From the sequence record MT682707.1: a stretch of 39,305 bases of DNA. The stretch is one strand, 5' to 3'. A program made the position numbers and the translations under genes. A model generated the notes under the pieces. That model was not told where the DNA came from and did not search any database. It was given only the letters and a program-made list of their open reading frames with translations. Source of the stretch: Escherichia phage vB_EcoP_SP7. Shown here in pieces: positions 4,592 through 38,436 of the stretch; positions within the stretch are counted from its first letter, which is position 1; every line of letters starts with the position of its first letter.

Positions 4592-4609
4592 ACTATCACT
4601 ATAGGATTA
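4587..4609 (+). promoter_or_regulatory. Phage-RNAP promoter (phi1.1 position)
   Basis: CTAAACTATCACTATAGGATTAG; +1 at 4604. Confidence 0.8.
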
Positions 4610-4650
4610 GACTCAAGGTCATGACTCAAAGTCGTGGCCTTCATGATTAA
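4609..4650 (+). promoter_or_regulatory. RNase III processing site (R1.1-like)
   Basis: AGACTCAAGGTCA...GTGGCCTTCATGATTAA; the same conserved element recurs at 11899 and 34856 and resembles the recalled T7 R0.5 site GACTCAAGGTCGC..GAGTGGCCTTTATGATT. Confidence 0.7.
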
Positions 4651-4679
4651 CCCTAACTCATTCAATCAGGAGCTACACC

Positions 4680-7326: not shown

Positions 7327-7486
7327 TATGACTGAGGTTGAGAAGAAATACATCGTGGAGCTTGAGGGTCGCGTTCAGTCCTTCGAGGTTCCGGTGTACG
7401 CAAAGTCTCTTGAAGAGGCTACCATGAAGTCCCAAGAGTATGAGGACGCTGGGTTTGTGGTCGGACGGATTCGTCCTGAGACCTAA
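7327..7486 (+). CDS. gp2-like inhibitor of host RNA polymerase
   Basis: [14 protein letters not shown]...[10 protein letters not shown] matches recalled T7 gp2 (SFEVPIYAETLDEA...AGFEVTRVRP). AAGGAG sits 8 nt upstream of ATG 7327; the track's 7250 start is a GTG with no RBS. Confidence 0.75.
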
Positions 7487-7504
7487 ACTATCACTGTAGG
7501 ACAG
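7482..7504 (+). promoter_or_regulatory. Phage-RNAP promoter (phi2.5 position), variant core CACTGTAGG
   Basis: CCTAAACTATCACTGTAGGACAG. Confidence 0.6.
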
Positions 7505-7543
7505 ACGTCCAGTTCGTAACTTTAAAATAGGAGATTTACACCA

Positions 7544-8242
7544 ATGGCTAAAGAGCAACTGAAGACTTTCACCACTCCGGTAGCTGGTATCGTTGAGCCT
7601 TACGCATGGCTAAACAAAGCAGACACCAAGTTCAACGAGCGTGGTGAACACAAAGTCAACCTGACATTCGACCTGAACAACACGAAGGTCCGTAAGATGA
7701 TTGATGTCTTACAGAAGATTCATGACGATGCCTATGCGAAAGCACTCGCAGACCACGAGAAGAACCCACCTCAGGTTCAGCGTGGTAAGAAGCCTATTGA
7801 ACCACGAGAAGGCGACATGCCGTGGATTGAGAATGGTGACGGTACTGTTACCCTGAAGTTTAAGTGCTTCGCGTCTTACCTGAAGGATGGTAAGTCAGAG
7901 CCTATCGTATTACGGTTCTACGACACCGATGCTAAACTCATCCGTGACGTCCCGAATATTGGCGCTGGGTCTAAGCTGAAGGTCAAGTTCAAAGTCCTGC
8001 CGTTCAAGTGGAACGCTGCGACTGGTGCAAGCGTTAAGCTCCAGCTTGAGTCCTGCCTTCTGGTAGAACTGAAGGAGTGGAAAGGTGATGGTGCTGGTGG
8101 TGATGGTGGCTGGGGTGATGATGAAGACCTTGGTACTGGCTACAAAGCGTCAACAGATGGTGACTTCGGGTCTGATGACTTCGGTGATGATGGCTCCGAA
8201 GGTGGTGATGACTCCAGCTCTGGTGGCGATTACGACTTCTAA
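7544..8242 (+). CDS. Single-stranded DNA-binding protein (gene 2.5), 232 aa
   Basis: Same length as T7 gp2.5; conserved NPP..RGKKP, GDMP, ENGDGT, KLKVKFKV..KWNAATGASVKLQLES and the acidic C-terminal tail ending in F. Confidence 0.95.
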   Translation: MAKEQLKTFTTPVAGIVEPYAWLNKADTKFNERGEHKVNLTFDLNNTKVRKMIDVLQKIHDDAYAKALADHEKNPPQVQRGKKPIEPREGDMPWIENGDGTVTLKFKCFASYLKDGKSEPIVLRFYDTDAKLIRDVPNIGAGSKLKVKFKVLPFKWNAATGASVKLQLESCLLVELKEWKGDGAGGDGGWGDDEDLGTGYKASTDGDFGSDDFGDDGSEGGDDSSSGGDYDF

Positions 8243-8694
8243 TGGCCCAATGGTCTGCAAAACGGGGGCACTCTGTGGGTGCCTACCGCTCTGGACTTGA
8301 AGCCAAGAACCAGCAGTGGCTGGAACAGAACGGCGTCAAAGCGGAGTACGAAAGCCATTATATCAACTATGTGATTCCGGCTTCCGACCACAAGTACACA
8401 CCAGACTTTATCCTTCCAAACGGGATCATCGTGGAGACCAAAGGTATCTTCGATAGTGATGACCGTAAGAAGCACCTTCTGGTACGAGAACAGCACCCAG
8501 AGTTAGACATCCGGTTCGTGTTCTCAAGTTCCCGCTCCAAGCTATACAAAGGGTCTCCGACCACGTATGGCGCATGGTGCGAAAAGAACGGCTATAAGTA
8601 TGCCGATAAATTCATCCCGGTTGAGTGGCTTCGAGAGGCGACTGTACGTCTGCCTTCAGGTATACTCATCCCTAAGAAGAAAGGAGTTAAGTGA
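8242..8694 (+). CDS. Endonuclease I, Holliday-junction resolvase (gene 3)
   Basis: YRSGLE, YTPDFILPNGIIVETKG, DDRKKHLLVREQHPELDIRFVFSSSRSKLYKGSPTTYG match recalled T7 endonuclease I. Confidence 0.95.
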   Translation: MAQWSAKRGHSVGAYRSGLEAKNQQWLEQNGVKAEYESHYINYVIPASDHKYTPDFILPNGIIVETKGIFDSDDRKKHLLVREQHPELDIRFVFSSSRSKLYKGSPTTYGAWCEKNGYKYADKFIPVEWLREATVRLPSGILIPKKKGVK

Positions 8695-9185
8695 TGGGCA
8701 AGAAGTTTAAACTGTTAGAAGATAAGTGTGGCTGGTCTCGTGGGACTATCGTTACCAAGTGTGAGAATGATCCCGAACCCGATTCAGGAATGACCCTAGT
8801 TGAGTGCCAGACTCCAGGAGCATACAAACATGGGTCTAACGGCCGCAATACTCAGCCTGAGGGTATGTGGGGAGCATGGGTCCCTAATTACGAACTTGAG
8901 GAAATCAAACCAGAAGGGGAACTCACTGGAGTGCAGACCACTCAAGTCCTGCCAGCTTCTAGCGTACCACCTTTGACTGTGAAGCGTGAAGTCCTGACCA
9001 TCGACAAGATTGGTGTAGGCCAGACGTTCATCGTCCACGGCAAGCCTGACGAAGTTTACGTGAAGATTAGCAACTCACACGTCTTCAACCATAAGCGTCT
9101 CCAGATGCACACCACGGACGCACAACGCTTCACCCAGCACCTGAATCTAGTGGTCGTAGAATTGGTGGTGTACAATGGTAAGTAA
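8694..9185 (+). CDS. Hypothetical protein (163 aa) inserted between endonuclease I and lysozyme
   Basis: ATG overlaps the gene 3 stop, with AAGGAG RBS; no T7 counterpart (genes 3 and 3.5 are adjacent in T7). Confidence 0.55.
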   Translation: MGKKFKLLEDKCGWSRGTIVTKCENDPEPDSGMTLVECQTPGAYKHGSNGRNTQPEGMWGAWVPNYELEEIKPEGELTGVQTTQVLPASSVPPLTVKREVLTIDKIGVGQTFIVHGKPDEVYVKISNSHVFNHKRLQMHTTDAQRFTQHLNLVVVELVVYNGK

Positions 9186-9633
9186 GGTGCAATTCAACCA
9201 ACGGTCCCGGACTGACGCTATCTTCGTTCACTGTTCGGCTACCAAGCCAGAGATGGACATCGGGGTAGAGACCATCCGTATGTGGCACAAGCAGCAAGGC
9301 TGGCTGGACGTAGGCTACCACTTTATCATCAAGCGAGACGGTACTGTGGAAGAGGGTCGACCGGTCAATGTCGTAGGGTCACATGTTAAGGACTGGAACT
9401 CACGGTCTGTAGGCGTCTGCCTTGTAGGTGGAATCAACGCTAAGGGTCAGTTTGAAGCTAACTTCACTCCAGCCCAGATGAACTCCCTGCGCAACAAGCT
9501 GGCTGACCTGAAGTCCATGTATCCTCAGGCAGAAATCAAAGCACACCATGACGTAGCACCTAAGGCGTGTCCAAGTTTCGACTTGCAACGCTGGCTGTCT
9601 ACCAATGAACTGGTCACTTCCGACCGTGGATAA
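9175..9633 (+). CDS. Lysozyme, N-acetylmuramoyl-L-alanine amidase and RNAP inhibitor (gene 3.5)
   Basis: VQFNQRSRTDAIFVHCSATKP...WLDVGYHFIIKRDGTVEEGR...APKACPSFDL...NELVTSDRG is nearly collinear with recalled T7 lysozyme. Confidence 0.95.
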   Translation: MVSKVQFNQRSRTDAIFVHCSATKPEMDIGVETIRMWHKQQGWLDVGYHFIIKRDGTVEEGRPVNVVGSHVKDWNSRSVGVCLVGGINAKGQFEANFTPAQMNSLRNKLADLKSMYPQAEIKAHHDVAPKACPSFDLQRWLSTNELVTSDRG

Positions 9634-9733
9634 GATAGACTTTCTGCTTATCCTTCTGTTATCAGGAGCAATCACCTTCGTAGGATGGTGGTTCTTCCCT
9701 GAACACTTTGAACTCTAAAGGAGAACAACCCCA

Positions 9734-9949
9734 ATGATTAAACTTATTGAATTTCTTGGTCGTCTGGTGGTGCGTGGCTATCGTCGTGCTGCGGTTATGG
9801 AACGAAAGGTAGCAGAGAAGACCGCTGACGGTGCGGCTGATGCTGCTGCTCTAGCTGACAAGCTGACAATCCAGTCACTGGAAGCTGGCATGAAGGCTCG
9901 TCAGGCTGATACCAAAGCTGACCAGTTGGCGCATTTCTTCAAAGCCTAA
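9734..9949 (+). CDS. Hypothetical protein (71 aa), Ala-rich
   Basis: ORF with AAAGGAG RBS between lysozyme and the gene 4 promoter. Confidence 0.45.
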   Translation: MIKLIEFLGRLVVRGYRRAAVMERKVAEKTADGAADAAALADKLTIQSLEAGMKARQADTKADQLAHFFKA

Positions 9950-9967
9950 ACTATCACCTTAGGGATG
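9945..9967 (+). promoter_or_regulatory. Divergent phage-RNAP promoter-like site upstream of gene 4
   Basis: CCTAAACTATCACCTTAGGGATG; the upstream specificity region is intact, with two substitutions at -4 and -3. Confidence 0.45.
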
Positions 9968-10014
9968 GGACCGTGAGTCCTGTCCCTTTGTCCGCGTTTG
10001 TGATTAAGGAGTGA

Positions 10015-11894
<1,880 letters not shown>

Positions 11895-11898
11895 GTCT

Positions 11899-11940
11899 AG
11901 ACTCAAGGTCATTCACAGCGAGTGGCCTTTATGATTAGAC
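11899..11940 (+). promoter_or_regulatory. RNase III processing site upstream of the DNA polymerase gene
   Basis: AGACTCAAGGTCATTCACAGCGAGTGGCCTTTATGATTAGAC; same conserved element as at 4609 and 34856. Confidence 0.7.
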
Positions 11941-34842: not shown

Positions 34843-34855
34843 ATCTCTTAAGTGT

Positions 34856-34900
34856 TAGACTCAAGGTCATTACTATATGTAGTGGCCTTTATGGTTAACA
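34856..34900 (+). promoter_or_regulatory. RNase III processing site (R18.5-like)
   Basis: TAGACTCAAGGTCATTACTATATGTAGTGGCCTTTATGGTTAACA; conserved element in the same position as T7 R18.5. Confidence 0.7.
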
Positions 34901-34952
34901 CTAACTAGTGGAGGCGACTCTACGTGAAATCTGATAAACCGGGAGGGCAACT

Positions 34953-37780: not shown

Positions 37781-38019
37781 CGCAATCGTGGTAACGATTC
37801 ATGAGCGGAAGACCTAAGGTCAGTACGTGGATAAAGACTCACTCTACTGACCTTAGCTACTGTAGTCAAGGACTTTAGGTAACACCTTAAGAGAAGCTCA
37901 CTTAGGGTCATCCTACTTATTGGTCTATCCTAGTGTCGCCTGACCTACGGTCCTTGACCTACAGTGGCTGTGGCCTACAGTAGTGACGATGAGTTTTGGA
38001 CCAAAAGTTTGAGACCACA

Positions 38020-38217
38020 TCTCACAGTTCAAGAACCTCAAGTCTCCCCATAGGCCCTCTTTCAGTCCAGACCAAAGGCCCTACCCAGTCTATCATAAGG
38101 TTGGACCGATGGTCAATACTTCAGGTCAACGATAGGTATAGGCTATGGCTGGAGGTCAGGACGATAGGTAGGGACTATGGGTCTTCTCTGAGTCTCTATC
38201 TGTATCAGACCTTTGAG
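38020..38217. repeat. Putative terminal-repeat region with the genome left end near 38020 (one copy, as expected in a circularised or concatemer-derived assembly)
   Basis: TCTCACAGT...TCCCCATAGGCCC resembles the recalled first bases of the T7 genome (TCTCACAGTGTACGG...CCCCCATAGGGGG); TCTCTATCTGTA near the distal end resembles the T7 ATCTGTT element; flanked by CCTACAG-type short repeat arrays on both sides as in T7. Confidence 0.45.
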
Positions 38218-38218
38218 T

Positions 38219-38277
38219 CACTACCTACAGTCTAACTACCTACAGTCTAACTACCTACAGTCTAACTACCTACAGTC
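38219..38277. repeat. 15-bp tandem repeat array (CTACCTACAGTCTAA, about 3.7 copies), with further CCTACAG copies to about 38330
   Basis: Directly visible; analogous to the short repeat arrays flanking the T7 terminal repeat. Confidence 0.85.
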
Positions 38278-38436
38278 ATCGACCATCGGTAATGCCGCTA
38301 CCTACAGTCAGAGACCTACAGTTAATAGACACAAAGGATATAGACTTAATGTCTAAGACATGTTAGTCAAAGATTATATCCTCTTACACCATGGGGGGCC
38401 GATGCTAGCTCAATCAATATTATTTCAAATTACCTA

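What the first reader, a model, noticed from the sequence alone, without database searches (positions are those of the whole stretch)
8694..9185. Orphan 163-aa ORF inserted between endonuclease I and lysozyme
T7 genes 3 and 3.5 are adjacent; here an extra ORF is translationally coupled on both sides (ATG overlaps the gene 3 stop; its 3' end overlaps the lysozyme start by 11 nt). I see no recognisable motif. Insertions into the conserved replication module are often accessory or anti-defense functions.
Basis: inference. Interest (0 to 1): 0.55.

Follow-up and report, generated by a model that had tools for sequence, protein, structure and literature searches.

The report
Phage gp3.2: swappable head, fixed core
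The extra gene between the phage's DNA-cutting enzyme and its lysozyme is real but is not an orphan: it is gp3.2, a protein of unknown function annotated in K1F-like phages since 2005, with a fast-changing, exchangeable front domain joined to an almost invariant rear domain.

Summary
A 163-aa ORF (8694..9185, +) lies between endonuclease I (gene 3) and the amidase/lysozyme (gene 3.5) and overlaps both, as described. T7 has nothing in this position.

"Orphan" is wrong. The window is Escherichia phage vB_EcoP_SP7, a Kayfunavirus, and the ORF is gp3.2. That gene is annotated in K1F, EcoDS1 and Dev2, matches PHROG 16385 and 15211, and occurs in about 220 phage records, always in this slot.

It is a real coding gene. 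dN/dS is 0.09-0.13 in the C-terminal core, while synonymous sites differ by up to about 1.4 substitutions per site.

What I add is the architecture:
- **N-terminal module (aa 1-75):** a confidently predicted SH3-like barrel. It is hypervariable in its loops and is replaced by unrelated modules, or is absent, in near-identical genomes.
- **Linker:** proline-rich.
- **C-terminal core (68 aa):** near-invariant, with the motif SNSHxFN..QMHTT..RF. Its fold could not be resolved.

Natural frameshift deletions show the gene is dispensable. No Pfam, NCBIfam, PDB, PADLOC or Rfam match was found, and no functional study.

My best guess, which is inference, is a non-essential middle-gene adaptor that binds a variable host or defence target. 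The gene is already known, its function is open, and interest is modest.

The parts
8694..9185 (+). gp3.2 coding sequence, 163 aa plus stop. It is identical to GenBank 'hypothetical protein SP7_0016' of Escherichia phage vB_EcoP_SP7.
   Evidence: ORF list and sequence. P0001 is a 100% identical match. PHROG 16385 matches full length at E 8.7e-92. Relatives are annotated gp3.2 in K1F and EcoDS1.
8679..8685 (+). Shine-Dalgarno sequence AAAGGAG, 8 nt upstream of the gp3.2 ATG, inside the end of gene 3.
   Evidence: Read directly from the sequence. The equivalent AAAGGAG is listed for the SH4 orthologue (PMC4925675).
8694..8918 (+). N-terminal module, type A (aa 1-75). It is predicted as a five-stranded SH3-like beta-barrel with an invariant framework (GW, GTIVTKC, DP, LVE, QPxGMWGAW) and hypervariable loops at aa 8-12, 28-33 and 64-67.
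8919..8978 (+). Proline- and serine-rich linker (aa 76-95, ..PQVLPASSVPPVT..). It is the junction at which N-terminal modules are exchanged.
   Evidence: Alignments A1 and A2. dN/dS is 0.07. Identity to genomes with a different module recovers from about 8924. AF2 pLDDT is low, consistent with a flexible segment.
8979..9182 (+). C-terminal core domain (aa 96-163). It is the only part shared by the whole family and corresponds to the free-standing 74-aa gp3.2 of SH4 and Dev2, PHROG 15211.
9057..9131 (+). Invariant motif of the core, Y122..SNSHxFN(126-132)..QMHTT(137-141)..RF(145-146). It is conserved even in the most distant relatives (34-46% identity).
   Evidence: Invariant columns of alignments A2 and A3. 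Sequences of P0135, P0141 and PSTRCR_120.
8242..8694 (+). Gene 3, endonuclease I. This is the upstream neighbour; its stop overlaps the gp3.2 ATG.
   Evidence: PF05367, E 2.8e-81, full-length match. ORF list.
9175..9633 (+). Gene 3.5, amidase / T7-lysozyme homologue. This is the downstream neighbour; it starts 11 nt before the gp3.2 stop.
   Evidence: PF01510, E 2.2e-16; PHROG 822, E 4e-80. ORF list.
7482..7526 (+). Phage-RNA-polymerase promoter-like repeat (CCTAAACTATCACTGTAGGAC) upstream of gene 2.5. It is the nearest promoter upstream of genes 2.5, 3, 3.2 and 3.5.
   Evidence: Repeat family D3/D1 of the promoter consensus CTAAACTATCACTATAGG. No such repeat and no sigma-70 promoter or terminator lies inside 8242-9633. 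The position is analogous to T7 phi2.5.
9939..9970 (+). Next phage-promoter-like repeat, upstream of gene 4. It marks the downstream end of the promoter-free stretch that carries gp3.2.
   Evidence: Repeat family D1.

Best explanation
**Shown**
- The ORF is gp3.2, a real protein-coding middle (class II) gene specific to Kayfunavirus-type T7-like phages.
- No promoter or terminator separates it from genes 3 and 3.5, so it is most likely co-transcribed with them from the promoter upstream of gene 2.5.
- It has three parts: an exchangeable N-terminal module predicted to be an SH3-like barrel with hypervariable loops, a Pro-rich linker, and a 68-aa near-invariant C-terminal core carrying the motif SNSHxFN..QMHTT..RF.
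- In other family members the N-terminal module is replaced by at least six unrelated modules, is doubled up with a second module, or is absent.
- The core and the genomic slot (gene 3 -> gp3.2 -> gene 3.5) are constant.
- Loss alleles occur in nature, so the gene is dispensable in at least some hosts.

**Inferred mechanism**
gp3.2 is a non-essential adaptor made in mid-infection.
- The conserved core performs or anchors one constant activity, probably by binding a conserved phage or host partner through the invariant polar motif.
- The variable N-terminal barrel supplies strain-specific recognition of a fast-evolving host target, such as a defence or other host factor.
- Recombination at the linker lets phages swap specificities.

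Identity and architecture are near certain. The adaptor / host-target mechanism is a minority-to-even bet; the confidence given below is for the whole statement.
For: **Identity**
- 100% match to SP7_0016, with 254 relatives.
- PHROG 16385 and 15211.
- gp3.2 annotations in K1F, EcoDS1 and Dev2.

**Coding**
- Core dN/dS is 0.09-0.13 with dS up to 1.4-1.5, so the constraint acts on the protein and not on the DNA.
- No Rfam element.

**Transcription unit**
- Promoter repeats occur only at about 7482 and about 9945.
- No sigma-70 promoter or terminator lies inside the stretch.

**Modularity**
- N-terminal module types are seen. A+B forms are, and the 74-aa short form.
- The type A module is in 55 records, the core in 220.

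**Cassette exchange**
- Against L008, the flanks are 90-100% identical.
- Positions 8684-8924 fall to background, and identity returns to 95-98% from 8984. Core dS is only 0.07-0.09.

**Scaffold with variable loops**
- Column entropy profile; N-domain dN/dS of 0.36.

**Fold of the N module**
-.

**Slot constancy, even for the most distant members**
-.

**Dispensability**
- TH20, P0132 and P0134 delete the core and run into another frame that stops at TAA 9179-9181, just past the gp3.5 ATG.
- P0122, P0137 and P0138 delete most of the N module.
- T7 lacks the gene altogether.

**Not a recent foreign insert**
- GC is 0.47-0.53, like the flanks.
Against: - There is no direct evidence of any binding partner, target or phenotype.
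- No similarity to any characterised anti-defence or host-takeover protein was found.
- No functional study turned up in the literature searched.
- The core's fold could not be predicted, so 'binding interface' rather than 'catalytic site' is a guess.
- Hypervariability and cassette exchange also fit other roles, such as phage-phage competition.
- Two phages with different modules were both isolated on E. coli K-12 MG1655, so module type does not simply track the isolation host.
- The TH20 record is flagged UNVERIFIED, and the metagenomic deletion alleles could come from defective genomes.
Confidence: 0.45

Rival explanations
1. gp3.2 is a partner or regulator of a neighbouring phage protein. 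The conserved core would bind the amidase/lysozyme gp3.5, modulating its lytic activity or its inhibition of the phage RNA polymerase, or would bind endonuclease I. The SH3-like module would act like a separately encoded cell-wall-binding or targeting domain.
For: - The core always lies immediately upstream of gene 3.5, usually overlapping it; a second ORF intervenes in the PSTRCR_120 lineage.
- Deletion alleles preserve the junction with gene 3.5.
- SH3-like domains are the classic wall-binding modules of endolysins (established knowledge), and the N module is SH3-like.
Against: - T7 genes 3 and 3.5 overlap in the same way without any gp3.2, so tight packing is the default here.
- gp3.5 is full length and functions in T7, and presumably in TH20, without gp3.2.
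- In the PSTRCR_120 lineage another ORF separates the core from the amidase.
- No Pfam SH3b or GW family is matched.
- A partner of a conserved phage protein would not be expected to need unrelated, swappable N-terminal modules.
Confidence: 0.2
2. gp3.2 is a nucleic-acid-binding or nucleic-acid-processing accessory factor of the replication/recombination module. The basic core would bind DNA or RNA, or would be a very small nuclease-like domain using the invariant His, Asn and Arg residues.
For: - It lies within the DNA-metabolism gene block, between the SSB and endonuclease I on one side and the primase-helicase on the other.
- The Kayfunavirus core has pI 9.5-9.7.
- It has a dense cluster of invariant polar residues: N127, S128, H129, N132, Q137, H139, T140, T141, R145.
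- SH3-like, Tudor and KOW barrels often bind nucleic acids (established knowledge).
Against: - Distant cores are not basic; P0135 and P0141 have pI about 6.3.
- No HNH, His-Me or other nuclease family is matched.
- H133 and H149 are not conserved, and the spacing H129-N132-H139 does not fit an HNH motif.
- The Hpy99I match most plausibly comes from its barrel rather than its active site; this is my inference, since the aligned residues were not inspected. The core region of the model is unreliable in any case.
Confidence: 0.12
3. The ORF is a decaying or selfish remnant with no function of its own. On this view it is kept only because it carries the ribosome-binding site and translational coupling for gene 3.5.
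For: - The Shine-Dalgarno sequence and ATG of gene 3.5 lie inside its last codons.
- Deletion alleles keep exactly that piece.
Against: - Strong purifying selection acts on amino acids across the whole 68-aa core while synonymous sites are near saturation.
- The motif is conserved to 34% overall identity in distant lineages.
- The N module also has dN/dS of 0.36, below 1.
- The family is maintained in about 220 sequenced phages.
Confidence: 0.03

Closest known systems
gp3.2 of coliphage K1F and EcoDS1 (long form), and of Cronobacter phage Dev2 and Citrobacter phage SH4 (74-aa short form); PHROG 16385 and 15211, both 'unknown function'
   Same: - Same family. The window protein is 80-88% identical to the long forms over its full length.
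- The core is about 80% identical to the short forms.
- Same slot between genes 3 and 3.5 with the same overlaps.
   Different: Nothing essential; this is simply the vB_EcoP_SP7 allele. The short forms lack the N-terminal module altogether. None of these proteins has a described function.
Small non-essential class II proteins of T7 that act on host factors: gp2 (host RNA polymerase), gp5.5 (H-NS), gp5.7, gp5.9 (RecBCD) and gp4.5 (Lon)
   Same: - Small and dispensable.
- Embedded among DNA-metabolism genes and expressed from middle promoters.
- Lineage-variable (established knowledge of T7 biology; slot and promoters).
   Different: - No sequence or detectable fold relationship.
- No host target is known for gp3.2.
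- To my knowledge (not tested here), those T7 proteins are not built from a conserved core plus swappable modules.
SH3-like small beta-barrel domains, including SH3b and GW cell-wall-binding modules of endolysins
   Same: - The N-terminal module is confidently predicted as a five-stranded barrel.
- Its best structural matches are SH3 domains.
- It is encoded next to a peptidoglycan amidase.
   Different: - No Pfam SH3, SH3b or GW model is matched.
- It is a separate polypeptide.
- To my knowledge (not tested here), T7-type lysozymes of Gram-negative hosts have not been reported to use wall-binding domains.
Hypervariable 'accessory regions' of enterobacterial phage genomes that encode counter-defence genes (Silas et al., bioRxiv 10.1101/2023.04.06.535777)
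   Same: A fixed genomic slot flanked by conserved core genes, whose content varies between near-identical genomes.
   Different: - Here the variation is within one gene (domain swapping on a constant core) rather than between alternative genes.
- gp3.2 sequence motifs do not occur in that study's supplementary files.

Membership tests
gp3.2 family (PHROG 16385 / PHROG 15211) | Significant full-length profile match to the family model | tested here: met
   phrog_16385 at E 8.7e-92 over aa 1-163, model positions 1-157 of 157. phrog_15211 at E 2.7e-40 over aa 95-163.
gp3.2 family (PHROG 16385 / PHROG 15211) | Position between endonuclease I (gene 3) and amidase (gene 3.5) in a T7-like genome | tested here: met
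   Window; K1F; SH4; 23 IMG/VR loci; distant members.
gp3.2 family (PHROG 16385 / PHROG 15211) | Conserved core motif Y..SNSHxFN..QMHTT..RF | tested here: met
   Window aa 122-146; these are invariant columns in A2 and A3.
SH3-like small beta-barrel fold (N-terminal module only) | Five-stranded barrel with structural similarity to SH3 domains | tested here: inconclusive
   [not shown]
SH3b / GW cell-wall-binding domains | Match to a Pfam SH3b or GW family model | tested here: not met
   No Pfam family at E <= 1 for the whole protein.
HNH / His-Me-finger homing endonucleases (the usual inserts in the T7 class II region: genes 2.8, 3.8, 5.3) | HNH motif or profile match | tested here: not met
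   No Pfam, NCBIfam or PDB-sequence match. Only H129 and H139 are invariant, their spacing does not fit HNH, and there is no Cys/His zinc site.
Detached domain of a neighbouring protein (endonuclease I or amidase) | The neighbour lacks a segment that the ORF supplies | tested here: not met
   Both neighbours match their Pfam models end to end (1-147 of 149; 3-130 of 131) and have the same lengths as the T7 proteins. No similarity of gp3.2 to any other ORF in the window.
Known anti-defence proteins | Homology to a characterised inhibitor, or an experimentally shown counter-defence phenotype | not testable with these tools
   No anti-defence profile library is available. PADLOC, which holds defence proteins, gives no hit. 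Nothing in the literature searched.

The most novel reading that the evidence does not exclude
gp3.2 is a 'plug-and-play' counter-defence or host-takeover adaptor.
- A tiny, previously undescribed effector or anchor domain (the SNSHxFN..QMHTT..RF core, with no detectable relatives outside this slot among 1.84 billion representative proteins) is retargeted by recombinational swapping of unrelated small barrel modules.
- The loops of those modules evolve like an immune-receptor binding surface.
- Each module would then mark a different host target, and the family would be a natural library of binders for strain-specific host factors or defence systems.
Probability: 0.25. Interest if true: 0.7.

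Novelty: already known. Interest (0 to 1): 0.33.

Why it matters
As a sequence feature it is ordinary. The gene has been annotated as gp3.2 since the K1F genome, and this exact protein is in GenBank.

What may be useful is the architecture shown here: one constant 68-aa core with an unexplained invariant motif, joined to interchangeable hypervariable barrels in otherwise near-identical therapeutic-type coliphages. Kayfunaviruses are widely isolated for phage therapy against K1, O25b and ETEC strains. If the modules set strain-specific infection success, they would be a compact, engineerable determinant of host range beyond adsorption, and the core would be a new small functional domain.

The experiments are simple: deletion and module-swap phages tested on strain panels, and pull-downs.

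Full report
**1. Observation**

The ORF listing and the raw sequence show three tightly packed genes.
- **Gene 3** runs 8242..8694 and ends in TGA at 8692-8694.
- **The ORF** has its ATG at 8694-8696 (TGATG, a 1-nt overlap) and its TAA at 9183-9185, giving 163 aa.
- **The next gene** starts at 9175, an 11-nt overlap.

Endonuclease I matches PF05367 at E 2.8e-81 end to end, and the second is an Amidase_2 / T7-lysozyme homologue (PF01510, E 2.2e-16; PHROG 822, E 4e-80). A strong Shine-Dalgarno sequence, AAAGGAG, lies 8 nt upstream of the ATG. In T7 itself gene 3 (10257..10706) abuts gene 3.5 (10706..11161).

**2. It is not an orphan**

The protein is 100% identical to 'hypothetical protein SP7_0016' of Escherichia phage vB_EcoP_SP7. 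That record's contig length, 39305, equals the window. SP7 is an ETEC phage from swine (PMC7471389).
- tblastn finds the protein in 219 phage records.
- The records are mostly Kayfunavirus, isolated on Escherichia, Salmonella, Enterobacter, Citrobacter, Shigella, Klebsiella, Cronobacter and others.
- It is annotated 'gp3.2' in K1F and EcoDS1 and in Dev2 and SH4 (PMC4925675).
- PHROG 16385 matches full length at E 8.7e-92. PHROG 15211, a 74-aa family, matches only aa 95-163 at E 2.7e-40. Both are 'unknown function'.

**3. It is a real gene, probably co-transcribed with its neighbours**

Selection acts on the protein:
- dN/dS in the C-terminal 68 codons is 0.13 across 24 loci and 0.09 among type A alleles.
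- Synonymous divergence from the short forms reaches 1.2-1.5 substitutions per site, although the proteins stay about 80% identical. The constraint is therefore on the protein, not on DNA or RNA.
- The N-terminal 75 codons have dN/dS 0.36, the linker 0.07, and gene 3.5 has 0.13 for comparison.

Other checks agree:
- Rfam finds nothing.
- The phage promoter consensus (CTAAACTATCACTATAGG) occurs at about 7482, upstream of gene 2.5, and at about 9945, upstream of gene 4. It does not occur in between, and there is no sigma-70 promoter or terminator in between.
- Genes 2.5, 3, 3.2 and 3.5 therefore look like one middle-class transcription unit, as in T7.
- GC content is unremarkable.

**4. Anatomy: a constant core with an exchangeable head**

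Alignment of 20 relatives and of more distant ones shows three parts.

*(a) aa 1-75, the 'type A' module.*
- It has an invariant framework: G13-W14, GTIVTKC, D26-P27, LVE, QPxGMWGAW.
- It has very variable positions at aa 8-12, 28-33, 44, 51 and 64-67.
- AF2 predicts a five-stranded barrel with pLDDT 82-91.

*(b) aa 76-95, the linker.* It is Pro/Ser-rich (PQVLPASSVPPVT).

*(c) aa 96-163, the core.*
- Mean pairwise identity is 0.93, against 0.64 for the head.
- The invariant motif is Y122, S126-N-S-H-x-F-N132, Q137-M-H-T-T141, R145-F146.
- The motif survives in relatives that share only 34-46% identity: P0135, P0141 and Providencia phage PSTRCR_120.

The head is not constant across the family. 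Variants seen are:
- a 74-aa form with no head (SH4, Dev2 and many Salmonella Typhi phages);
- a 'CKDLEVGTRYRF' type B head;
- a 'YRVL..IGETF' type;
- four further unrelated heads (P0124, P0125, P0130, P0135);
- 221-227-aa forms carrying A and B in tandem.

In the phage database the type A head occurs in 55 records and the core in 220.

**5. The head is a recombination cassette**

I aligned the window (7544-10017) to L008, a genome with a type B head.
- Identity is 87-100% up to 8684.
- It falls to about 50%, with gaps, through 8684-8924.
- It returns to 95-98% from 8984.

The core of L008 and L009 differs from the window's at dS of only 0.07-0.09. Even L003, which has the same head type, drops to 72-87% identity in the head while the flanks stay at 95-100%. 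Two phages isolated on the same K-12 host carry different heads: LNA5 has type A, and LNA3 matches only aa 80-163.

**6. Dispensability**

TH20 (an UNVERIFIED record) and the metagenomic alleles P0132 and P0134 have independent deletions that remove the core.
- They read into another frame of its last 60 nt. Translation of the window's own 9119-9181 gives RTTLHPAPESSGRRIGGVQW*, matching their tails.
- That frame stops at 9179-9181, just after the gene 3.5 ATG. The junction with gene 3.5 is therefore preserved while gp3.2 is destroyed.

P0122, P0137 and P0138 lack most of the head. T7 has no gp3.2 at all.

**7. How narrow the family is**

An exhaustive HMM search of 1.84 billion representative proteins found only 16 clusters. 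A core-only profile search added one more. I checked the genomic context of three distant members, P0135, P0130 and P0141, and all three lie between endonuclease I and the amidase in T7-like contigs. So do the Providencia phage PSTRCR_120 and Pectobacterium phage LET1 homologues. The Providencia-phage lineage has a second unknown 117-aa ORF in the same slot.

**8. What it does**

Nothing curated matches:
- Pfam, NCBIfam, PADLOC and the PDB sequence set give no significant hit for the window protein, or for relatives with other heads in the first three.
- The core has no paralogue elsewhere in the window.
- Literature searches found only genome-table mentions.
- The supplements of one large accessory-gene screen do not contain the gp3.2 motifs.

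The mechanism is therefore inference from anatomy. Four features point the same way:
- a conserved scaffold with hypervariable loops;
- replacement by unrelated small modules on a constant core;
- natural loss alleles;
- middle-gene expression.

Together these fit best a non-essential adaptor. Its head would recognise a fast-evolving, strain-specific host target, such as a defence or other host factor, and its core would provide a constant activity or anchor. I put this at roughly 0.4-0.45.

Rivals:
- **Partner or regulator of the adjacent amidase/lysozyme or of endonuclease I (0.2).** Constant adjacency and the SH3-like fold favour it. Against it, T7 genes 3 and 3.5 overlap in the same way without gp3.2, gp3.5 works without gp3.2 in T7, and a partner of a conserved phage protein should not need swappable heads.
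- **Nucleic-acid-binding or nucleic-acid-processing factor (0.12).** The basic core in Kayfunavirus and the invariant His/Asn/Arg cluster favour it. Against it, distant cores are not basic and no nuclease motif fits.
- **Functionless spacer kept for gene 3.5 coupling (0.03).** The dN/dS results contradict this.

**9. Comparison and verdict**

The protein is a member of the known but uncharacterised gp3.2 family; all three defining features tested were met.
- The head works like an SH3-like binding module, but it fails the test for membership of the SH3b or GW families.
- The protein is not an HNH insert and not a detached domain of a neighbour.
- The reading 'orphan' is wrong, 'accessory' is supported, and 'anti-defence' remains untested.

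As a discovery it is already known. The modular core-plus-cassette architecture and the invariant motif are a modest, testable addition.

Noticed in passing
window 9584-9733: This is a second variable spot: the last codons of gene 3.5 and the roughly 100-nt spacer before the gp3.7-like ORF (9734..9949). It loses all alignable identity to relatives that are otherwise 95-100% identical.
   Followed up: no
window 38220-38277 (related copies 37943-38322): A 15-nt unit, ACTACCTACAGTCTA, is repeated in tandem about four times near the right end of the genome, with degenerate copies nearby (families D8 and D4). This may be the repeat array next to the terminal repeat or concatemer junction typical of T7-like phages.
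   Followed up: no
window 4595-4658 and 34843-34906; also 11892-11912: A 64-nt repeat (80% identical) follows promoter-like sequence, and the shared element TAGACTCAAGGTCAT occurs at three sites (D6 and D14). These may be RNase III processing hairpins.
   Followed up: no
L001 (Citrobacter phage SH4) 1032-1486; L031 (K1F) 2052-2504: In SH4-like genomes endonuclease I is annotated as only 72 aa, with about 236 nt unannotated upstream (PHROG 27028 is this short form). K1F annotates both a full gene 3 and an internal-start '3B'. I did not resolve whether the short form is an annotation artefact or a real truncated or internal product.
   Followed up: partly
L002 (Escherichia virus TH20) 616-1056: A 146-aa HNH-like ORF sits immediately upstream of gene 3 in TH20, at the position of T7 gene 2.8. 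The window has no such gene, since its gene 2.5 abuts gene 3.
   Followed up: no
L035 (Providencia phage PSTRCR_120) 1659-2012; L026 4456-4812: A second unknown 117-118-aa ORF occupies the same gene 3 to gene 3.5 slot, downstream of the distant gp3.2 homologue. It has no PHROG match.
   Followed up: partly
window 9119-9181, alternative frame: Independent natural deletion alleles (TH20, P0132, P0134) all read into this frame. It ends at TAA 9179-9181, just after the gene 3.5 ATG, so coupling to gene 3.5 is kept while gp3.2 is lost.
   Followed up: yes
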